64,000 bases of DNA from Candidatus Eiseniibacteriota bacterium (lineage in GTDB: Bacteria > Eisenbacteria > RBG-16-71-46): contig CAVUWA010000003.1 in NCBI GenBank assembly GCA_963744995.1, forward strand, positions 130,758 to 194,757, read 5' to 3'. Within the stretch, counting starts at the first letter, position 1. Each line of letters starts with the position of its first letter. The translations under genes and the position numbers were made by a program. Under the pieces are notes generated by a model. It searched no databases. It saw nothing but the letters and a program-made list of their open reading frames with translations, and was not told where the DNA came from. This document shows, piece after piece, positions 48,630 through 56,058 of this stretch.

Positions 48630-50291
48630 CTAGCTCAGCCCGAAGCGCCGCATCTTGTTGATAAACGTGGTGCGGGGGATGCCAAGCGAGCGAGCCGCCT
48701 CGGTTCGGGAGCCGCGCGCCTGCATGAGCGCATCGCGAATCCGCTGGCGTTCCGCGTGCTCCATCTCCTCGAGCAGATTCGAGGGTGCCTGCGAGCCTTC
48801 GTCGAGGTGCAACAGAGACTCGTCGACCTCCTTGCCGGGCGTCGCCAGCAACACGGCACGCTTGATCGCGGACTTGAGCTGCCGGATGTTCCCCGGCCAG
48901 GAATGCGCACGCAGACGCTTCCAGGCCGCCGGGCTCAGGCGGACTTCGCGATTTTCCTCCGCGCAAACGACATCGAGGAAGTACTCGATCAGCAGTTCGA
49001 CATCTTCCCCGCGGCGCCGCAGGGGCGGCAGGGTGACGACCGCGTGGGCCAGTCGGTAGTAGAGATCGGGCCGGAATCCGTCACCGCTCTCCAGGGCGTG
49101 TCGTTCGCGATTGGTCGCCGCGACGATACGTGTGTCGACCTTGACGTTGCGCGTCGACCCGACCCTTCTCGATTCACCCGTCTCCAGGAAGCGCAGGAGA
49201 CGAGACTGGGACTCGAGCGACATTTCGGCGATCTCGTCCAGGAAGATCGTCCCGTTGTCGCAGACCTCCACGAGCCCCGCCTTGTCGCGAGCCGCACCCG
49301 TGAAAGAGCCCGCCGTGTGACCGAAAAGCTCGCTCTCGATGATGTCGCGCGGCAACGCCCCGCAGTTGACCGGGACGAATGTGCCTTTGCGCTCCGAAAG
49401 CCGGTGGATGCCGGCTGCAACCAGCTCCTTCCCCGTTCCCGATTCGCCGAGCACGAGGATGGGGGTGTTGCTCGCTGCGAGCTTGGCGACGTCCTCCAGA
49501 AGCTGGAGCATCGTCTTGCTGCGCGTGATGAGGCCGAACGACTCGCGCGCCCAGTCCGAGCGGCGATCCAACTCCGCGGAGCCCGGCGGGCGCCGGCGCG
49601 CGTGACGCGGGCGTCCCGCATTTCGAGCCGTCTTCAGCGCCTGATCGGATTCCTTCATCGCCGACATCAGGTCGGCGATGCGTCGATTGGCCTCGGCGAG
49701 ACGCGCCTGCGCTCCCATCCGCTCGAAGTGATCGCGCGCCGCGTGGAACGCTTCCAGTGCGCCGCGACGGTCAGCGTAGTTGCCCGCGTGCGGCCCGCTC
49801 AGCCAGTCGCCGTAGGCCAGCCACAGCTTGCCCCACTCGTAGGGCGTCTCGATGTCGTCGTAGTACGCGAAGCCCTGATCGAACCACTTGCGGGCTTCGT
49901 CATGGCGTTCGAGCGCTGCCGCCGACAATGCGAGCACGCGATAGGTGGCCGCTTCTTCGTAGCGGTCCCCCAGTTCGCGACAGTGCTCCAGCCCACCGAG
50001 GGCTTCTTCGTGGGCTTTCGCGAATGCCCCCTGCAGGTAGAAGACTTCCGCTCTGCGTCGCCGCAATTCGGCGACGATGTCTCCCTTGGGAACCAGCGCC
50101 AGAGCCTTGGGCCACACCTCGTCGTAGTAGCGAAGCGCCTGATCCGCCTGTCCCTGCTCGAGGTGGACATCGCCGAGGAATTCGGTAGTAAGGAGGGAGG
50201 GGCGGGACTCGTGCGATCTGGGACTCCAGCCAAGGAACTTCCGTAATATGTGCTCTCGCCCCTTCGAAAAGGTCCCCCGTATGGAGTAGGA
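48630..50291 (-). CDS. Sigma54 enhancer-binding protein (TPR + AAA+ + Fis HTH), intact 3' portion
   Basis: Frame open from 50291. TPR helices (EFLGDVHLEQG, RYEEAATYRVL), GESGTGKE, GSFTGA, FLDEI, FRPDLYYRL, WPGNIRQL, and HTH (EAARSLGIPRTT). Confidence 0.9.
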   Translation of the reverse strand, partial: SYSIRGTFSKGREHILRKFLGWSPRSHESRPSLLTTEFLGDVHLEQGQADQALRYYDEVWPKALALVPKGDIVAELRRRRAEVFYLQGAFAKAHEEALGGLEHCRELGDRYEEAATYRVLALSAAALERHDEARKWFDQGFAYYDDIETPYEWGKLWLAYGDWLSGPHAGNYADRRGALEAFHAARDHFERMGAQARLAEANRRIADLMSAMKESDQALKTARNAGRPRHARRRPPGSAELDRRSDWARESFGLITRSKTMLQLLEDVAKLAASNTPILVLGESGTGKELVAAGIHRLSERKGTFVPVNCGALPRDIIESELFGHTAGSFTGAARDKAGLVEVCDNGTIFLDEIAEMSLESQSRLLRFLETGESRRVGSTRNVKVDTRIVAATNRERHALESGDGFRPDLYYRLAHAVVTLPPLRRRGEDVELLIEYFLDVVCAEENREVRLSPAAWKRLRAHSWPGNIRQLKSAIKRAVLLATPGKEVDESLLHLDEGSQAPSNLLEEMEHAERQRIRDALMQARGSRTEAARSLGIPRTTFINKMRRFGLS

Positions 50292-51180
50292 TCAATGCCT
50301 TGAAGAGACCGAGGTACCACTCCATGAAGTCCCGTCGCCAGTTCTCGTTGAGTCATCGGATGCACATGCCTCACCAAGCCCAAAGATTGGTCGAGCCGTC
50401 CGCAGCTTCCAGCACGGAGATGCCAACCCTCGCGGGATGCATTGTTTACGTAGATGCGTTACCACGCCTGCTCTAGAAGTCCTATGGCTTCTGCTGCGGC
50501 CTCTATGGCAGCGCCCATCTACACATGGCCCTCTCGATTCGCCCTAGGTGTCTAGAGCAAAGCCTTCACACGTTGCCACCGCATCGCGCTGCAGAGACGA
50601 GAGCCTCGTATAGGTATCCCCGGATGCCGATGTCAGGTTGCCATTGTACAACTCGGCCGAACAGAGATGCAGACTGCAGCCGCAGGAGAGGCATCCGAGT
50701 CGGCGCCACAAGCAACTCTGAACGAATGGCCGAAAGTCGGTCGCATGCGTCTGTCACACAAGATTCAAGAGTGTTAGCGTCCCTGCCTCTTGAATATCTC
50801 AAGGAGAGACGTAGCTCCGGTCGTGGATCTGCAGTTCGGTCTTGAACGATGCGAGGAGTTGTGAAAGAGGGCAAGTGACTTTTCAAGTCGCCTGTGCAGC
50901 TCAGAGGACGTACCTTGCCCAGACTAGCCGAAGCTTGCAAGCTCGTCGGCCGCACTTGCCACTTGCGCGAAGAGCGATCAGCCGTTCAAGGCCCAAAGCT
51001 CGGAACTCGCCAACGTCGAACAAGTCGGTGGAGCAACCTGACAGCCTCCTCCGCGAGGCTCTGTTCTGTATCGCTTGTTGTACCTGCGTCGATCAGAATG
51101 GTCAACGCGTCTGCACGTGCCAAGACTTCGATCATCGATCTCTTAACTGCCTGCGAGAGGCATTAGTGGCGGGCAGCCAT
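50292..51180 (-). pseudogene. Frameshift-fragmented N-terminal TPR-like region of the same regulator (pseudogene or unpolished sequence)
   Basis: TPR-like fragments in alternating frames (MIEVLARADALTILIDAG, LYEALVSAARC, LGRIERAMCRW, AIEAAAEAIGLLEQA, ALILLHTGD) with many stops. GC was 50% and 60% in two hand-counted lines, against about 70% elsewhere. Confidence 0.6.
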
Positions 51181-51403
51181 CGTTTGCACGCGCAAGGGCA
51201 CGGCGAAGGAGAATGAACTCAAGGGACTTTGGATGATGATTAGGAGCGCCGTACGGCCTATCCGGATCTCCAAACAAGTACCTCGGGTCATCTGGAATCT
51301 TGATCCCGCCCGGGGAAGCCGCCCCCTCGAGCGGCGTGATGGTCGTACTCAGGATGACGAGCAGAGCAGCCAGTGCGGCTGCCCTTCGGGGACACTTCTT
51401 CAT
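51143..51403 (-). CDS. Small secreted peptide (86 aa) with GDPDxP core
   Basis: GAAGGGAG RBS. MKKCPRRAAALAALLVILSTTITPLEGA signal peptide, then ...PDDPRYLFGDPDRPYG... and an amphipathic SLEFILLRRALAR segment. Confidence 0.65.
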   Translation of the reverse strand: MKKCPRRAAALAALLVILSTTITPLEGAASPGGIKIPDDPRYLFGDPDRPYGAPNHHPKSLEFILLRRALARANDGCPPLMPLAGS

Positions 51404-51553
51404 CGTCCTGCTCCCTTCGGAGTTCCGTCTCCGAGGCCATCCCGCCGCGAGCAGGCGGGGGGCGCAAAAGACATGACCCCGCCGGGGCACCCATGAGGAG
51501 CCCCCGCGGGGTCGATTGAGATTTCCCGGGCAGGAAGAGGGGAAGCGACCATC

Positions 51554-51569
51554 AGCGCCAACCTTGCCA
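51554..51569 (-). promoter_or_regulatory. Putative sigma54 (-24/-12) promoter of the peptide-regulator locus
   Basis: Minus strand TGGCAAGGTTGGCGCT, which is TGGCA with GG-N10-GC spacing. An 8-bp inverted repeat CCGCAACG/CGTTGCGG lies at 51578-51614. Confidence 0.5.
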
Positions 51570-51680
51570 GAGAGAACCCGCAACGAACGCGGAAAGAATA
51601 AGCTCCCGTTGCGGATGGGTCAACGCCGGAGTCGCGCTGAAACTCCAGAGATTCCGGGTGAAATCAGGGTCTGCGGCCCT

Positions 51681-52796
51681 CTACCGCCTCTCCCCGCGCC
51701 AGGTCCCGTTGCCGTGCCTTCCCCTCCTACCCACGATCTTCAACTCCAGCAGATCCTGCACGCCGATGCCCCGCCCGTACCGCTTCTGCGCCTCCCGGAT
51801 GAACTCCGGCGTCACCCCGTGAATCCGCATGGCCACCAGGTCATCGAGGTCCACGTGGTGGTAGCCGAGGCCTTCTGCCTCGCGAATGAACTCGGGCGTC
51901 ACCCCGTGGATGCGCATCGCCACGGCGTCGTCCAGTGACGGATGATCGTAGCCGAGCCCTTCCACTTCGCGAATGAACTCCGGGCTCGCCCCGTGAATCC
52001 GGCATGCCAGCAGGTCGTCGGCGCTCACGTTGCGATACCCGAGCGCTGCCATCTGCTGCCGCAGCTCCGGTGTCACACCATGTATGCGCATCGCCACCAG
52101 GTCGTCGGCGTCCAGCACCTGGTCGCTTCGGGCGCGCGTCTCGCGCACGAACTGGGGCGTCACCCCGTGAATGCGCATGGCGACGAGTTCATCGGGGTCC
52201 AGGTCCTTCAATCCCAGCGCGCGCATCTCGCGAATCCAAGCCGCGCGCACGCCGTGAATCCGGAACGCCAGCACCTCGTCGGCTTGCAGGTGGTCGTAGC
52301 CCAATCGTGCCAGCTCGCGGATCTCGGCGAGGCTCACGTCGTGCACGAACATGGCGAACTGCATGTCGTCGTCCACTTCGCCGGTCACGTGCTCGCGCAG
52401 CGCATCGCGAAAGCCGGGGTCGGGCTCGAACCGGGCGGTGCCGGTCCCCTGGCCGTCGCCCACGCGCCCTTCGAAGCGCATCGTGCCGGCATCGCGCGTC
52501 TGGCTGAACGTCATGTCCCGGCGCGGGCCTTCGAAGTCGCGCCGCGTAATGCCCCTGAACGCGGACAGGTCCTCGGTGTGCTCGGATCGCCAGTGGCGCG
52601 TGGGGCTCTCCTGCGTGAGCCGCATCTCGACGCGGCCGTCGCGTCGCAACTCGGCGCTCCAGTGCCACGGCCCGCTGGCCCGCGATCGCGCCGGCGCGGC
52701 GCTCGCCAGCAGCGCCAGCACCACGCCGATCATGCCTGCGGCGGCGAATCGTGCCGCCCACCGGGTTCCGCTCGTGCTTCGCTTCGAGTTCGACAT
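51681..52796 (-). CDS. Secreted protein with about 7 tandem 29-aa (DDLVAMRIHGVTPEFIRE) repeats
   Basis: GGAGG RBS and signal peptide. The DNA shows 87-bp periodicity (atgaactc at 51799, 51886, 51973). Confidence 0.85.
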   Translation of the reverse strand: MSNSKRSTSGTRWAARFAAAGMIGVVLALLASAAPARSRASGPWHWSAELRRDGRVEMRLTQESPTRHWRSEHTEDLSAFRGITRRDFEGPRRDMTFSQTRDAGTMRFEGRVGDGQGTGTARFEPDPGFRDALREHVTGEVDDDMQFAMFVHDVSLAEIRELARLGYDHLQADEVLAFRIHGVRAAWIREMRALGLKDLDPDELVAMRIHGVTPQFVRETRARSDQVLDADDLVAMRIHGVTPELRQQMAALGYRNVSADDLLACRIHGASPEFIREVEGLGYDHPSLDDAVAMRIHGVTPEFIREAEGLGYHHVDLDDLVAMRIHGVTPEFIREAQKRYGRGIGVQDLLELKIVGRRGRHGNGTWRGERR

Positions 52797-52896
52797 GCGC
52801 GCTCCTCCCCTTCCCCGGTGGGTCTTCGAACGGTGAAGGGCTCCCCGGTCAGGCCGGGGAGCCCCTCGTGATGGCGACCGATGCGGCGGCCCGCCG

Positions 52897-55800
52897 CTAC
52901 TTCTTGTCCTTCGCCTTCTGCTCGCAGTCGCTGGTCTCCCGCCGCGTGAACTCGATCACCGTGTCCGCCGACGGGTCCTCGCCGTTGCGCTGCGCCCGCT
53001 CGATCTGCGCCGCCGAGATCCCGCTGTGGAACCGACGCACGACCTCTTCGGGTTCGAGATCCGCGCCGCCCGCCTTGACCAGCACGGCCAGCCACGAAGT
53101 GCGCACCCCGCCGCGGTGGAGCATCGCGATGGCCTCCGGAGAACGGTCGGCATAACCGGTCGCCACCACCGCCGACACGTAGGCGCTCGGCACGGCCGCC
53201 CGATGCAGCGCTACGATGTCGTCCACCCCGAACTTCACGCCCTGCAGGCGCGCCATGTTGGCGGCATAGACCACGTTGACAGCGTTCTGATGCAGCGCCA
53301 TCAGCTCGTCCGCGCCGAGCGGCCGGCCAAACGCCGAGGTCATCTGCGCGACCCAGTCCAGCGTCACGCCGGCGCGCGCCAGCTCGACCATCTCGTCCTC
53401 GCTCAGGTCGCGATAGCCCAGCACGTTCAGTGCCGCGACGACGTCGGGCGTCACGCCGCTGTCGTGCAGCTCGATCAGCTGGTCGAGCGAAAGGTCGTGA
53501 CCTCTCAAGCGGCGCATCTGCGCCACATCACCCAGCGAGATCCCGTGAGACCTCAGCTCGACCAGACTCTGTTCGTCGGCCCCGATGCCGAGCCGCTGCA
53601 GCGCGTCGATCTGCTCGGGGGTCACGTTGCGCCGCCGCAGGTCGGCCAGCTCGTCGAGCTCGACCGTGCGCCCCATGCGCTCCGCGATGGCCCGCGCGTA
53701 TGCCGAGCTGACCCCGCTCGTCCGTAGCTCCAGCAGCGTTTCGGCGTCCAGCGGCTCGTCCGTCACGCGGGCCAGCGTGCGGGCTTCGTCGGGGGTGACG
53801 CCGTGGAGCTTCAGCTCGATCAGCTCTTCGGCGTCCGGCGCGTCCTGCACGGCCTCGCGCATCGCGCGCACGTAATCGGGCGTCACGCTCTGCACCTTGA
53901 GCGCGATCAGTTCCTCGGCCTCCGGTTCGTCGCCCAGGGCGTCACGCATCGCGCGCGCGTAATCGGGCGCGACGCCCATGAGCTTCAGCCCGAGCAGGTC
54001 TTCGGCCCCCGGCGTGTCGCCGAGCGCCTCGCTGATCGCGGCGACGTAGTCGGCGCTCACGCCCTGCGCGAACAGGACGTCCAGGTGTTCATCGTCCAGG
54101 TCGTCGACGCCGGCCGCGGCCAGCGCTTCGCGGAACTCGGCGATGCGGCGCGCGTTCGGCGCCGCCGGCGCCATCGTCACGCTGTAGGCGTACGCGGTCG
54201 CATTCGCGGTGCGCGCGACGGCCTCGGCCCGCTTGCGCTGCGCGACGACCCGGGTGAGGTCCTTGCGCATCACCTGCCGCACGGTGCGCTCGACCTGTCG
54301 TTGCGTGTTCTGCACGGACTCGGCCAGGTGCGCCAGCGAAGGCACGGGCGCCACGGTCCAGCGGCCGCCGGGCGTGGCGGCCGGCGCGGGTCGCGGCGCG
54401 GCGGGCGCGCAGGTCTCCTGCGTCGCGCACCCGGGCGCCGGTGGGCAGGGCGCGGCCTCCGGCGCCGCCGCGGCGCCGATGTGCCCGTGCAGCCCGCCGC
54501 CCGGCAGCGGAGCCAGGTGCAGGTGCTCGCGCGGCGGCACGGGCGCGGCGTCGCAGCAGGGCGCCTCGGGCGCGGGCGTGGCCGGCACCGCCGGCGCCGC
54601 CGGTGCAGCGAACGGCGCGGCCGGAGGCGGCATGACCTCGCCGGGGGCCGGCGTGGCCCGCGGCGCGGGCGCCGGCACGGCGTCCGGCGCGGCCGGAGCC
54701 GCCGGCGCGGGCGGCGCGGGCGGCGCGGGCGGCGCGCCGGTGAAGGAGGCCACCACCGAGAAGAATCCGTCTTCGCTTGCGCTCCGGGCGTGCTGGCTGC
54801 GGGCCGCGGGCGCGAGACCCAGCACCACGAACAGGATCGAGCCGAGCAGCAGGAGGCAGGCGCCGCAGCGGGAGACCAGCGACGCGCGCGGCGCGGGATC
54901 CAGCAGGCGGCGGATCCGGTTCAGGAGCGAGCCACCGTTCGCAGCGAGCGCCAGCCGCGGCGCAGCGAGTCGCAGGTGCTCGAGGTCGCAGAGCGCGCGC
55001 GCGTAGGCCACGCGGTCGCCGCACGCCCGCACGGCGAGGTCGTCGCACGCGTTCTCGCGTTCTTCGCGGACGCAATGCGACACCCACCACACGGCCGGGT
55101 GATAGAAGAGGATGGTTTCGACCACGGTCTGCAGCAGGTTGATCAGGTAGTCGTGACGGCGGATGTGGGCCAGCTCATGCGCGACCAGCGCCTCGACCTG
55201 CGCCGGGGTGAGCCCGGCCATCGCCCCCACCGGTACCAGGATCACCGGCCGCAGCCAGCCGATGACGGTCGGCACTTCGACCAGCGCCGAGCGGAACGCC
55301 CGCACCGGCCGTGACACGCGCATGCGCGCCGTCAGGCGCTCGAGCGTCTCGTGCAGGCGGTCACCGGGAATGTCGATCACCGTGCGGCGGATGCGCCGGG
55401 TGATCACCCAGCCGCCCGCGAGCCGCAGCGTGAGCAGCATGACGCCGAGTCCCCACAGCGCGACGAACCACGGCAGCCAGATCGGCGCGTTGCGGTCGAG
55501 CGTGCGCTCGAGGGCAGCGGTACCCATGCGCAGCGCGGTCCGGGCGAGGGTCTGCACCGCCAGCCACAGCGAATGCAGCGCGGCCGGCGGGGGCGCAGGG
55601 CGAGCCTCGAACGCAAACGTATCGGGATCGTTCCCGGCGCGGACGACCTCCCACGAGAGATCCGTTGGGGTCCCGGTGGCGACGTCGGTCGCGGCCATGG
55701 ACTCGATCGCCGGGTCCCCGGCCATCGCGGGCTCGCCGGCATCGCCGCTCCAGGCGAATACCTGCGGAACCTGAACGGCGGCCGACCCCGCCACCAGGGC

Positions 55801-56058
55801 CGCCGGGGCGGACTCGATCGCCGGCGCTTTCGGCGCGAAGTCCGAGGAGAGCCTCACGAACGTCGCGGCGGGCAGCGCGACCATCGCGAGCAGGGCCGCG
55901 GTGGCGAGCAGATAGCGCGGGCCCGACGCGCCGCGGTCGAACGCGCGGCTCGCGATCGCCAGCAGCACTGCGACGAGCGTTCCCTGCCAGAGAAAGTGCA
56001 GCAGCGTCCAGCCCAGTGCCAGCACGACGTGATCCGGAACGACCGTCCAGGGATTCAT
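52897..56058 (-). CDS. BlaR1/MecR1-type M56 metallopeptidase sensor with Pro/Ala linker and about 13 C-terminal 29-aa repeats
   Basis: LGWTLLHFLWQG, P.VIGWLRPVIL, HELAHIRRHD, FYHPAVWW, ERENACDD. The tail repeats (EELIELKLHGVTPD) replace the penicillin-binding domain. Confidence 0.9.
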   Translation of the reverse strand: MNPWTVVPDHVVLALGWTLLHFLWQGTLVAVLLAIASRAFDRGASGPRYLLATAALLAMVALPAATFVRLSSDFAPKAPAIESAPAALVAGSAAVQVPQVFAWSGDAGEPAMAGDPAIESMAATDVATGTPTDLSWEVVRAGNDPDTFAFEARPAPPPAALHSLWLAVQTLARTALRMGTAALERTLDRNAPIWLPWFVALWGLGVMLLTLRLAGGWVITRRIRRTVIDIPGDRLHETLERLTARMRVSRPVRAFRSALVEVPTVIGWLRPVILVPVGAMAGLTPAQVEALVAHELAHIRRHDYLINLLQTVVETILFYHPAVWWVSHCVREERENACDDLAVRACGDRVAYARALCDLEHLRLAAPRLALAANGGSLLNRIRRLLDPAPRASLVSRCGACLLLLGSILFVVLGLAPAARSQHARSASEDGFFSVVASFTGAPPAPPAPPAPAAPAAPDAVPAPAPRATPAPGEVMPPPAAPFAAPAAPAVPATPAPEAPCCDAAPVPPREHLHLAPLPGGGLHGHIGAAAAPEAAPCPPAPGCATQETCAPAAPRPAPAATPGGRWTVAPVPSLAHLAESVQNTQRQVERTVRQVMRKDLTRVVAQRKRAEAVARTANATAYAYSVTMAPAAPNARRIAEFREALAAAGVDDLDDEHLDVLFAQGVSADYVAAISEALGDTPGAEDLLGLKLMGVAPDYARAMRDALGDEPEAEELIALKVQSVTPDYVRAMREAVQDAPDAEELIELKLHGVTPDEARTLARVTDEPLDAETLLELRTSGVSSAYARAIAERMGRTVELDELADLRRRNVTPEQIDALQRLGIGADEQSLVELRSHGISLGDVAQMRRLRGHDLSLDQLIELHDSGVTPDVVAALNVLGYRDLSEDEMVELARAGVTLDWVAQMTSAFGRPLGADELMALHQNAVNVVYAANMARLQGVKFGVDDIVALHRAAVPSAYVSAVVATGYADRSPEAIAMLHRGGVRTSWLAVLVKAGGADLEPEEVVRRFHSGISAAQIERAQRNGEDPSADTVIEFTRRETSDCEQKAKDKK

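What the first reader, a model, noticed from the sequence alone, without database searches (positions are those of the whole stretch)
48630..51614. Candidate peptide-signal circuit: secreted GDPDxP peptide plus TPR-sigma54 activator under a putative sigma54 promoter
Seen in the sequence, all on the minus strand and tightly packed: a -24/-12 element (TGGCA, GG-N10-GC, 51554-51569), an RBS, and an 86-aa ORF with a clean signal peptide and a Pro/Asp/Gly core (PDDPRYLFGDPDRPYG). Immediately after it lies a region of about 830 codons encoding TPR helices fused to a sigma54 AAA+ domain and Fis HTH, with no recognisable receiver, GAF or PAS domain. Established knowledge: RRNPP quorum-sensing receptors bind exported peptides through TPRs and sit next to their propeptide gene, and bEBPs activate sigma54 promoters. 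Inference: the peptide is exported and processed, is sensed by the TPR domain, and the bEBP auto-induces this promoter. That would be a peptide quorum-sensing or kin-recognition system in a diderm, an architecture I do not know to be described. The peptide could instead be an anti-activator.
Basis: partly seen in the sequence, partly recalled or inferred. Interest (0 to 1): 0.85.

Follow-up and report, generated by a model that had tools for sequence, protein, structure and literature searches.

The report
Small exported protein paired with TPR-sigma54 activator
A small exported protein gene always sits directly in front of a TPR-type sigma-54 activator gene in an uncultured bacterial phylum, which marks an undescribed two-gene sensing unit, although the copy in this window has a wrecked sensor part and no sigma-54 promoter.

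Summary
The 86-aa ORF (51403-51143, minus strand) is real and conserved. A small ORF with a signal-peptide-like start and an invariant G-[D/E]-P motif lies directly upstream of the orthologous TPR-sigma54 activator in 36 of 39 assessable related loci. A scan of the window's own genome gave exactly 3 such ORFs, each directly upstream of one of its 3 TPR-activator genes. A profile of the small protein found 17 further pairs in relatives and 411 representative clusters in public proteins. No Pfam or NCBIfam family matches it.

The proposed sigma-54 promoter is not supported. It is a 3-mismatch match (168 in the window, about 199 expected by chance) and it is not conserved. What is conserved is a sigma-70-type promoter, followed by a 180-230 nt leader with a covarying terminator-like hairpin.

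In this window the first ~283 codons of the activator carry 8 stop codons and a frameshift. Only the last 552 codons are open. Orthologues are intact at 811-842 aa.

The small protein's tail and the N-terminal TPR third are both hyperdivergent, and their divergences correlate. Direct binding is inferred and has not been shown. The unit resembles RRNPP systems in layout but is not a member. Relatives' record titles name Candidatus Eisenbacteria.

The parts
51595..51623 (-). Sigma-70-type promoter-like site, TTGACC-17-TATTCT
   Evidence: the only promoter-like site on either strand in 50000-52000. A TTG..-N16-18-.A...T site lies at -207 to -260 from the small-ORF ATG in 27 of 30 related upstream regions (sequences).
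51404..51594 (-). 5' leader, about 190 nt here (178-230 nt in 29 loci), with conserved blocks (CCATG block, C-rich TCCCCTC block)
   Evidence: Alignments A1, A2 and A7. Lengths. No Rfam family at E up to 10 apart from chance-level rows.
51554..51569 (-). It is a chance-level match and lies inside the leader.
   Evidence: 3 mismatches; 168 such matches in the window against 199 +/- 13 expected; no match at one mismatch or fewer; not conserved.
51465..51513 (-). Terminator-like hairpin (51513-51475) followed by a T-rich run; candidate attenuator
   Evidence: One search lists the inner stem; 8 of 8 pairs have changes on both sides and 89-98% of cells are paired; at least 5 T in 8 nt after the hairpin in 24 of 29 loci.
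51411..51433 (-). Short inverted repeat CGGAG-N6-CTCCG directly 5' of the Shine-Dalgarno GGGAG (51415-51411)
   Evidence: Sequence. An inverted repeat in the last 45 nt is found in 24 of 29 leaders. A Shine-Dalgarno-like motif precedes the small ORF in 21 of 26 loci.
51143..51403 (-). Small ORF of 86 aa: signal-peptide-like N-terminus, acidic Pro-rich segment, G-D-P-D (51271-51260), basic C-terminal part with a predicted helix
   Evidence: G45 and P47 invariant in 37 sequences; hydrophobicity and charge; helices 6-22 and 61-76, otherwise coil.
50289..51135 (-). Decayed N-terminal third (about 283 codons) of the TPR-sigma54 activator gene: 8 in-frame stops, plus a frame switch near 50260
   Evidence: tblastn of orthologues; colinear profile matches, positions 1-41, 57-184, 192-206 and 265-297; stop list; 8-9 stops in each frame.
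48630..50288 (-). Open C-terminal 552 codons of the activator: TPR repeats, sigma-54 AAA+ domain (about 49532-49041), lid, Fis-type HTH (about 48761-48642). The first ATG/GTG/TTG is GTG at 50117.
   Evidence: 60-66% identical to orthologues over this part.

Best explanation
The locus is one copy of a two-gene sensing unit found, in the collections searched, almost only in records labelled Candidatus Eisenbacteria or left unnamed. A sigma-70-type promoter drives a structured leader of about 200 nt that carries a terminator-like hairpin. The leader is followed by a small protein gene with a strong ribosome-binding site. That gene's stop codon overlaps or abuts the start of a cytoplasmic regulator, which consists of about 500 aa of TPR repeats, a sigma-54 AAA+ domain and a Fis-type HTH.

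Shown: the architecture, its conservation, the exclusive pairing of the two genes, three paralogous unit types, and joint hyperdivergence of the small protein's tail and the N-terminal TPR third.

Inferred: the small protein is the cognate regulatory partner of the TPR domain. Its variable, basic C-terminal part, with a predicted amphipathic helix, binds the TPR groove and sets whether the AAA+ domain can assemble and activate sigma-54 promoters elsewhere in the genome. Export through Sec decides how much of the partner the cytoplasmic receptor sees. I rate a partner-switch or anti-activator released by export slightly above an exported signal that comes back in.

In this window the sensor third of the regulator is destroyed. 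This copy is therefore either dead or leaves a sensor-less activator ORF.
For: Pairing. A small ORF with a signal-peptide-like N-terminus and G[DE]P lies upstream of the orthologous activator in 36 of 45 related loci. Three loci lack it and 6 cannot be assessed because the contig ends there (alignment A3). In the window's genome, 14,422 M-start candidates of 70-130 aa were scanned: 108 look signal-peptide-like, 15 carry the motif at residues 30-70, and 3 have both. Each of those 3 lies directly upstream of one of the 3 TPR-activator genes. Five permuted control motifs gave 1 hit in all. A profile of A3 gave 40 places in 41 genomes: 16 are at orthologous loci, 1 is the own-genome paralogue, and 20 of the other 23 were fetched. 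Of those 20, 17 have TPR plus AAA+ homology directly downstream.

Coupling. The small ORF's stop lies 3 nt past the activator's start (4-nt overlap) in 16 of 30 loci and within 20 nt in 29 of 30. A Shine-Dalgarno-like motif precedes the small ORF in 21 of 26 loci but the activator in only 15 of 29.

Hyperdivergence. The N-terminal 300 aa of the activator are 14-40% identical between orthologues, against 40-67% for the rest, and have lower GC in 7 of 8 orthologues and in the window. In the closest pair the tail and N-terminus have dN 0.91 and 0.59 against 0.21 and 0.10 for the neighbouring parts, with higher dS as well. Tail distance correlates with N-terminal TPR distance given C-terminal distance: partial r 0.22, reached by 0 of 2000 permutations. 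The signal-peptide part gives r -0.02.

Receptor. The TPR model has pLDDT 89.9 and is an all-helical superhelix. Its nearest solved folds and sequences are peptide-binding TPR domains such as LGN/Pins and kinesin light chain. No other sensory domain is found. rpoN is present in the genome.

Family size. 411 representative clusters match at E <= 1e-3, and 149 of the best 150 carry G[DE]Px.
Against: No binding has been shown. The signal-peptide-like N-terminus should send the small protein out of the cytoplasm, while the receptor must be cytoplasmic, so an extra step is needed: binding before export, or re-uptake. Three loci keep an intact activator without the small ORF (L073, L084, L094). The tail is poorly conserved and rich in R, P, S and A, as random GC-rich sequence would be. 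The tail-TPR correlation could come from physical linkage of adjacent DNA and shared ancestry rather than co-adaptation. Export is judged only by simple hydrophobicity and charge rules, because no signal-peptide predictor was on hand. No target promoters are known, and flanking genes are not conserved in the 19 orthologous loci (6-13 kb each). No expression data exist.
Confidence: 0.5

Rival explanations
1. The small protein is exported and processed to a peptide, which accumulates outside, re-enters, binds the TPR domain and makes the activator auto-induce its own operon from a sigma-54 promoter. This would be an RRNPP-like quorum or kin signal in a diderm.
For: A conserved adjacent pair of signal-peptide ORF and TPR receptor. 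Several paralogous pairs occur per genome. The tail and the sensor part are hypervariable and correlated, as expected for specificity pairs. An invariant G[DE]P could mark a processing site (inference).
Against: The sigma-54 element is a chance-level match and is not conserved, while a sigma-70-type promoter is conserved. The mature product would be about 55-85 aa, not a short peptide. No processing enzyme or importer is linked, and neighbours are not conserved. The receptor is 811-842 aa and is not specifically related to RRNPP receptors. The overlapping stop and start fit an intracellular protein partner at least as well.
Confidence: 0.18
2. The two genes are co-expressed but their products do not touch. 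The small ORF is an exported envelope protein or a translated upstream ORF, and its translation (together with the leader) merely sets how much activator is made. The TPR domain senses something else.
For: The activator often lacks its own Shine-Dalgarno-like motif (14 of 29 loci lack one). Stop and start overlap. The long structured leader has a terminator-like hairpin. The tail is weakly conserved. Three intact activators lack the small ORF.
Against: A mere coupling ORF would not need a conserved signal-peptide-like N-terminus and an invariant G[DE]P across three paralogous unit types and 411 clusters. Its exclusive association with TPR-type activators, among the 27 matches to the AAA+ query in this genome, is also unexplained.
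Confidence: 0.2
3. The small protein is a membrane-anchored anti-activator with two membrane spans. Its basic C-terminal tail holds the activator at the membrane until a periplasmic cue, read by the acidic G[DE]PD loop, releases it.
For: The charge pattern fits the positive-inside rule: the segment between the first hydrophobic stretch and the motif has mean net charge -2.6, and the tail +4.1. A second hydrophobic stretch follows the motif in some members.
Against: A second stretch with a mean hydropathy of 1.6 or more over 19 residues is present in only 9 of 37 members, and not in the window's copy (0.43). The model of the window's protein shows only a 16-residue C-terminal helix of moderate confidence.
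Confidence: 0.08
4. The breaks in the activator's N-terminal third are assembly errors in a hypervariable region, and the gene is intact in the living organism.
For: The region is hypervariable in all relatives, so mixed strains could confuse a consensus. The reads found could not test this.
Against: There are eight stops of three kinds in the ancestral frame, 8-9 stops in every frame, and about 60 profile positions with no detectable similarity. Neighbouring long genes in the window are open. Other genomes also carry broken copies, by IS insertion, stops or frameshift.
Confidence: 0.04

Closest known systems
RRNPP(A) peptide quorum-sensing pairs of Firmicutes (Rap-Phr, NprR-NprX, PlcR-PapR, Rgg-SHP, AimR-AimP)
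   Same: A small ORF with a secretion signal lies directly next to a cytoplasmic TPR regulator. There are several paralogous pairs per genome, and the presumed contact parts are hypervariable. Of the five signature criteria in PMC10075063 (passages read), three are met here: small size (borderline), TPRs, and adjacency. A fourth, Sec secretion, fits simple rules only.
   Different: The receptor is 811-842 aa and its output is a sigma-54 AAA+ domain plus Fis HTH, not a 250-500 aa HTH or phosphatase protein. There is no specific homology: solved Rap and NprR chains rank behind more than 30 eukaryotic and designed TPR proteins and are absent from the Foldseek rows shown. The small gene lies upstream and is translationally coupled. 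The product is about 55-85 aa after the signal peptide. The host is an uncultured lineage whose relatives are labelled Candidatus Eisenbacteria. No peptide, importer or binding is shown.
PspF-PspA and other enhancer-binding proteins controlled in trans by a partner protein (recalled knowledge)
   Same: A sigma-54 activator whose activity would be set by a small partner protein rather than by phosphorylation or a small-molecule domain. In both cases there is a link to the envelope or to export.
   Different: PspF has no N-terminal sensory domain, and PspA binds its AAA+ domain. Here a 500-aa TPR domain is fused to the activator and the partner carries a signal-peptide-like N-terminus. No homology to Psp proteins was seen. 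NCBIfam PspF models match only the AAA+ part and fall below their cut-offs.
Export-coupled partner switches: FlgM/sigma-28, and the TPR chaperones IpgC-MxiE and SicA-InvF of type III secretion (recalled knowledge)
   Same: Transcription responds to whether a partner protein has left the cytoplasm. In the type III cases a TPR protein reads the secreted partner.
   Different: Those systems use dedicated secretion machines and separate AraC- or sigma-type regulators. Here export would go through Sec and the TPR is fused to a sigma-54 activator. This is an analogy only; nothing was tested.
Secretion-monitor arrest peptides (SecM, MifM, VemP; recalled knowledge)
   Same: A small ORF with an N-terminal export or membrane signal lies directly upstream of a regulated gene on one mRNA.
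   Different: The only invariant motif lies about 50 codons before the stop, and only about 15-20 residues after the hydrophobic segment. That spacing does not fit a pulling-force arrest near the downstream start. The downstream gene is a regulator, not a Sec or YidC component.

Membership tests
RRNPP-type quorum-sensing pair | Small propeptide (10-100 aa in RRNPP_detector; PMC10075063, passages read) | tested here: met
   86 aa in the window; 83-116 aa in 37 members, so some exceed 100 aa.
RRNPP-type quorum-sensing pair | Propeptide secreted by Sec (SignalP in the cited tool) | tested here: inconclusive
   Only simple rules were applied. 36 of 37 members have a 15-residue window with hydropathy of 1.9 or more near the N-terminus, and 34 of 37 have K or R in the first 10 residues. 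The model shows a helix at residues 6-22. No SignalP was on hand.
RRNPP-type quorum-sensing pair | Receptor about 250-500 aa | tested here: not met
   Intact orthologues are 806-842 aa, and 811-842 aa within the window's own family. The own-genome paralogues have open frames of 839 and 1061 aa.
RRNPP-type quorum-sensing pair | Receptor carries TPRs | tested here: met
   TPR_12 at E 1.2e-21, plus TPR_2 and TPR_4, in an orthologue. TPR_12 in the window's ORF. The model is a TPR superhelix.
RRNPP-type quorum-sensing pair | Receptor and propeptide genes are direct neighbours | tested here: met
   Stop-to-start distance is within 20 nt in 29 of 30 loci.
RRNPP-type quorum-sensing pair | Receptor homologous to a known RRNPP subfamily | tested here: not met
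   In the profile search against solved chains, LGN/Pins scores 2e-18, RapJ 6.7e-9, NprR 1.4e-6 and RapF 3.5e-5. This is repeat-level similarity only. No RRNPP chain appears in the Foldseek rows shown. No RRNPP-specific Pfam family matches.
RRNPP-type quorum-sensing pair | Mature peptide is re-imported and binds the receptor | not testable with these tools
   Needs experiments.
Bacterial enhancer-binding protein (sigma-54 activator) | Sigma-54 interaction AAA+ domain with lid | tested here: met
   PF00158 at E 1.3e-59 and PF25601 at E 1.3e-18 in the window's open frame. GESGTGKE and GSFTGA are seen in the translation. The signature loop is recalled as GAFTGA.
Bacterial enhancer-binding protein (sigma-54 activator) | C-terminal Fis-type HTH | tested here: met
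   PF02954 at E 1.7e-10.
Bacterial enhancer-binding protein (sigma-54 activator) | Sigma-54 (rpoN) present in the genome | tested here: met
   PF04552 at 216.7 bits, over its cut-off, at C3:201913-202389.
Bacterial enhancer-binding protein (sigma-54 activator) | Intact full-length gene in this window | tested here: not met
   Eight stops and a frame switch in the first ~283 codons.
Named enhancer-binding-protein equivalogs (PrdR, NifA, PEP-CTERM-box regulator, NorR, PspF and others) | Score over the NCBIfam curated cut-off | tested here: not met
   The best match is PrdR at 295 bits against a cut-off of 795. All matches cover only the AAA+/HTH part.
Sigma-54 (-24/-12) promoter upstream of the small ORF | Good match to the consensus (recalled as TGGCAC-N5-TTGCW), conserved in relatives | tested here: not met
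   Three mismatches, at chance frequency. The best GG-N10-GC sites in 30 relatives score 0-9 of 11 and lie at scattered positions.
Intrinsic terminator or attenuator in the leader | GC-rich hairpin kept by compensatory changes and followed by a U tract | tested here: met
   8 of 8 pairs have changes on both sides and 89-98% of cells are paired. A T-rich run follows in 24 of 29 loci. Termination itself was not tested.

The most novel reading that the evidence does not exclude
Candidatus Eisenbacteria carry an independently evolved analogue of RRNPP signalling. In this reading, a family of exported small proteins supplies lineage-specific ligands through their hypervariable C-terminal parts. The receptors are cytoplasmic TPR domains fused to sigma-54 activators, and each genome runs several orthogonal channels. 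This would be protein- or peptide-based self, kin or quorum recognition wired to sigma-54 in a likely diderm. A new structured leader RNA would add a second layer of control.
Probability: 0.2. Interest if true: 0.9.

Novelty: new variant of a known kind. Interest (0 to 1): 0.6.

Why it matters
Sigma-54 activators are usually switched by phosphorylation, small-molecule domains or a few known partner proteins. A large family of TPR-fused activators, each preceded by its own small exported protein, would add a new input logic. That family has at least 411 sequence clusters and three paralogous types in one genome. If the small protein or a fragment of it is a ligand, this would be the first RRNPP-like receptor-ligand layout outside the Firmicutes and their mobile elements that I could find. 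My searches for one were made, and none turned up. The pairs are short and self-contained, and they come in orthogonal paralogues. They could therefore be tested in a heterologous host, which matters because the source phylum has no cultured member that I know of. The conserved leader with a covarying terminator hairpin and no Rfam family is a separate candidate regulatory RNA.

Tried and rejected
Complex prediction. The small protein (residues 28-98 of the L053 orthologue, alignment A6) was folded with the TPR domain (A4). The score was 0.02 against a mark of 0.32, with the verdict 'no answer'. I count this neither for nor against binding.

Reads. One DNA run was listed, with a 0.06 share of words, and no RNA holder was listed. 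Its contigs cover only 49120-49535, the conserved AAA+ part. Neither expression nor the reality of the breaks could be checked.

Rfam on 51100-51750 gave only chance-level rows. The protein Atlas gave no usable hit for the small protein. Pfam and NCBIfam on all 37 small proteins gave no shared family. Solved structures gave one hit at E 0.47.

A long-range helix P1 in the leader recurs in single-sequence folds. It reached only 64.5% paired cells in fixed alignment columns, so it is left as inconclusive. RNAalifold predicted only the terminator hairpin.

An upstream leader peptide starting at the conserved ATG was rejected. The conserved blocks fall in different reading frames in different loci, so the conservation is at the nucleotide level.

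Two-span membrane topology is supported in only 9 of 37 members. An arrest-peptide reading was rejected on spacing (reasoning only).

A PEP-CTERM-like sorting signal was considered, because PEP-CTERM systems have sigma-54 regulators and TPR proteins (PMC1569441, search listing only). I rejected it because the motif is not followed directly by a membrane span and a basic C-terminus. The PEP-CTERM-box regulator model matches only the AAA+ part and falls below its cut-off.

Acid-labile or autocatalytic Asp-Pro cleavage at G-D-P was considered from memory. Against it, Glu replaces Asp in 32 of the 149 motif-bearing sequences among the best 150. It was not tested.

Conserved neighbours as candidate target genes: none in the 19 orthologous loci.

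dN/dS is mostly saturated (dS above 1 or undefined), so no claim of positive selection is made.

The tallies include the unpublished genome G026.

Because of these I could not see earlier notes, database names for the small proteins, or the genomic context of the 411 clusters. Supplements of papers were not consulted.

Full report
**What is in the window**

On the minus strand, the ORF listing and my three-frame translation show an 86-aa ORF at 51403..51143. Its N-terminus is basic and then hydrophobic. It contains the core PDDPRYLFGDPDRPYG, and GGGAG lies 8 nt before the ATG. Seven bases after its stop comes an ATG at 51135. This ATG begins a reading frame that resembles the N-termini of related regulators.

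That frame is broken. It carries eight stop codons, at 50988, 50568, 50505, 50484, 50475, 50448, 50373 and 50355 (TGA x4, TAG x3, TAA x1). Each of the three frames has 8-9 stops in this 925-nt stretch. A profile of the orthologues' TPR region still matches colinear remnants in the ancestral frame, at profile positions 1-41, 57-184, 192-206 and 265-297. The match then moves to another frame near 50260-50280.

From 50288 to 48630 the frame is open for 552 codons. Pfam finds TPR_12, Sigma54_activat (E 1.3e-59), AAA_lid_14 and HTH_8, and no receiver, GAF or PAS domain. The first ATG/GTG/TTG in this frame is GTG at 50117. I see no Shine-Dalgarno-like motif in the sequence before it.

**The regulator in relatives**

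The window's open frame has a close relative (E <= 1e-100) in 61 of 89 genomes of its family, counting its own. Among genomes at least 90% complete the figure is 34 of 44. I fetched 45 such loci. In 29 of them the gene is intact: 811-842 aa within the window's family, and 806 and 818 aa in two other families. An intact orthologue has about 500 aa of TPR repeats, then the AAA+ domain, lid and HTH.

Its TPR part folds with high confidence into an all-helical superhelix (pLDDT 89.9). The nearest solved structures by fold and by sequence profile are peptide-binding TPR domains of LGN/Pins, kinesin light chain, OGT and designed TPRs. Rap and NprR appear only far down the sequence list. No NCBIfam equivalog reaches its cut-off.

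Other genomes also hold damaged copies: an IS3-like insertion in L064, stops in a second copy in G012, and frameshifts in G003 and G013. rpoN is present in the window's genome.

The record titles of 51 related loci read Candidatus Eisenbacteria in 30 cases. Seventeen are unnamed ('uncultured bacterium' or 'bacterium'), and four carry other labels.

**The small ORF is a real, conserved partner gene**

A same-strand small ORF lies directly upstream of the regulator in 36 of the 45 loci. It has a basic-hydrophobic N-terminus and a G-[D/E]-P-x motif about 31-68 residues in. Three loci (L073, L084, L094) have an intact regulator but no such ORF. Six loci end too early to tell, and one of those (L090) shows the truncated ORF with the motif.

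In the alignment of 37 sequences, only the G and the P of the motif are invariant. The ORF stays open through a poorly conserved tail of about 50 codons right up to the regulator's start. The stop lies 3 nt past the start (4-nt overlap) in 16 of 30 loci and within 20 nt in 29 of 30. A Shine-Dalgarno-like motif precedes the small ORF in 21 of 26 loci, and the five misses are loci where my chosen start is probably too far downstream. It precedes the regulator in only 15 of 29 loci. This points to translational coupling.

*A blind scan of the window's own 4.66-Mb genome.* I looked for 70-130 aa ORFs with these two features. Of 14,422 candidates, 108 look signal-peptide-like and 15 have the motif in place. 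Three have both, while five permuted control motifs gave one hit in all. The three are this ORF and two others, each directly upstream of one of the two other TPR-fused sigma-54 activators that one search had found (C2:498393-501578 and C2:566720-569239).

*A profile search in relatives.* A profile of the 37 sequences found 40 places in 41 related genomes. Sixteen are the orthologous loci and one is the own-genome paralogue. I fetched 20 of the other 23. Seventeen of these have TPR plus AAA+ homology of the two paralogous types directly downstream. One is a false hit, and two stop at contig ends.

*A search of public proteins.* Against 1.84 billion representative proteins the profile finds 411 at E <= 1e-3, mostly 90-115 aa. 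Of the best 150, 149 carry G[DE]Px and 142 carry G[DE]PD.

No Pfam or NCBIfam family, no solved structure and no Atlas cluster matches the small protein.

**Shape of the small protein**

- Thirty-six of 37 members have a strongly hydrophobic 15-residue window near the N-terminus.
- The segment up to the motif is acidic (mean net charge -2.6) and the tail is basic (+4.1).
- A second membrane-span-like stretch is present in only 9 of 37 members.
- The model of the window's protein has a helix at 6-22 and another at 61-76 and is otherwise coil, with pTM 0.32.
- In the two paralogous types the extreme C-terminus is a better conserved W/L/R-rich segment.

**A hyperdivergent island**

Between orthologues the first 300 aa of the regulator are 14-40% identical, against 40-67% for the rest. 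GC falls to 53-60% there and in the small ORF, against 59-71% in the rest of the gene. This holds in 7 of 8 orthologues and in the window.

In the closest pair (L092/L093), the signal-peptide part and the regulator's C-terminal part have dN 0.21 and 0.10. The tail and the N-terminal TPR part have dN 0.91 and 0.59, with higher dS as well. Most comparisons are saturated.

Tail distance correlates with N-terminal TPR distance after allowing for C-terminal distance: partial r 0.22, reached by 0 of 2000 permutations. The signal-peptide part does not correlate (r -0.02). The two parts are adjacent DNA, and the sequences are related to one another. This fits co-adaptation but does not prove it.

**Promoter and leader**

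It is a 3-mismatch match to the consensus as I recall it. There are 168 such matches in the window against 199 +/- 13 in shuffles, and none at one mismatch or fewer. In 30 related upstream regions the best GG-N10-GC sites score 0-9 of 11 and lie at scattered positions.

What is conserved is a sigma-70-type site. In the window it is TTGACC-17-TATTCT at 51623-51595, the only such site in 50000-52000. It lies at -207 to -260 from the ATG in 27 of 30 regions. The paralogous units also have TTGAC-type sites, at about -140 to -200 from the ATG in most of the 19 upstream regions examined.

The 178-230 nt leader holds conserved blocks. They fall in different reading frames in different loci, so they are not a leader peptide. 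The leader also holds a GC-rich hairpin (51513-51475 in the window). All 8 scored pairs of this hairpin show changes on both sides, and 89-98% of cells are paired. A T-rich run follows in 24 of 29 loci. Rfam has no matching family. A longer helix enclosing the C-rich block recurs in single folds but is inconclusive in fixed columns.

**How it most likely works**

Shown: a self-contained unit of promoter, structured leader, small exported-type protein and TPR-sigma54 activator. The pairing is exclusive, there are three paralogous types, and the flanking genes vary.

Inferred: the small protein is the cognate partner of the TPR domain, and its variable basic C-terminal part is the contact. Occupancy of the TPR would control assembly of the AAA+ ring. 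The terminator-like hairpin would gate transcription of both genes.

I cannot decide between two versions. In one, the partner acts inside the cell before export, as an anti-activator removed by Sec, by analogy with FlgM and with type III chaperone co-activators (recalled). In the other, it acts as an exported signal. I put the first slightly ahead because the partner's C-terminus and the receptor's N-terminus are made one after the other from overlapping genes.

**State of this copy**

The receptor's sensor third is gone while the small ORF, promoter and leader look intact. All nine breaks (8 stops and one frame switch) fall in the first third of the gene, and none falls in the 552 codons that follow. 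If breaks fell evenly this would be unlikely (0.35 to the 9th power, a rough figure of my own). The C-terminal part is also no more diverged from orthologues than they are from each other.

Two readings fit. Either the remnant is still under selection as a sensor-less activator, or the N-terminal region mutates faster, as its raised dS in relatives hints. I could not test expression or the assembly.

**Comparison and novelty**

The unit works like an RRNPP pair in layout but fails membership on receptor size, homology and host group (criteria from passages of PMC10075063). It is a sigma-54 activator by domain content.

My literature searches found no description of such a pair. They used: enhancer-binding protein + tetratricopeptide + sigma-54; Eisenbacteria; RRNPP + Gram-negative + peptide; and bEBP + TPR. 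I read listings and abstract starts only, except for the passages named above.

I file it as a new variant of a known kind: a partner-regulated sigma-54 activator. There is a 0.2 chance that it is a new ligand-receptor signalling family.

Noticed in passing
window 51404-51594 (minus strand); alignments A2 and A7 of 23-29 related loci: Conserved 5' leader of 178-230 nt with a covarying terminator-like hairpin and conserved C-rich and CCATG blocks. No Rfam family matches. It is a candidate new cis-regulatory RNA or attenuator.
   Followed up: partly
own genome C2:498069-501578 and C2:566472-569239; related loci L148-L164: Two further paralogous unit types (small G[DE]PD protein plus TPR-sigma54 activator). 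Each has its own conserved leader blocks, and the small protein has a better conserved W/L/R-rich C-terminus.
   Followed up: partly
window 50200-51300; the same region in 8 orthologous loci: GC drops to 53-60% over the small ORF tail and the first 900 nt of the regulator, against 63-71% around it. This holds in 7 of 8 orthologues and in the window, together with raised synonymous divergence. The cause is unknown: faster mutation, recombination of old alleles, or relaxed selection.
   Followed up: partly
L064 (G019:C1, about 1088800-1092900): The orthologous regulator is split by an inserted pair of IS3-like transposase ORFs. The small ORF and the N-terminal TPR part remain upstream of the insertion.
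   Followed up: no
G012: C3:1228111-1230920 and C6:885206-887888: One genome carries two copies of this unit type. The C6 copy has two stop codons inside the regulator.
   Followed up: no
window 51681-56058 (minus strand): Two neighbouring genes (371 aa and 1053 aa) are filled with about 35-residue repeats of the RIHGVTPEFIRE kind. The first has a signal-peptide-like start and no Pfam family over its cut-off. They are not conserved next to the unit in relatives.
   Followed up: no
L073 (G089), L084 (G062), L094 (G054): Three relatives keep an intact regulator but lack the small ORF. In L073 the leader and the ribosome-binding site remain, and the ORF seems to have been deleted.
   Followed up: partly
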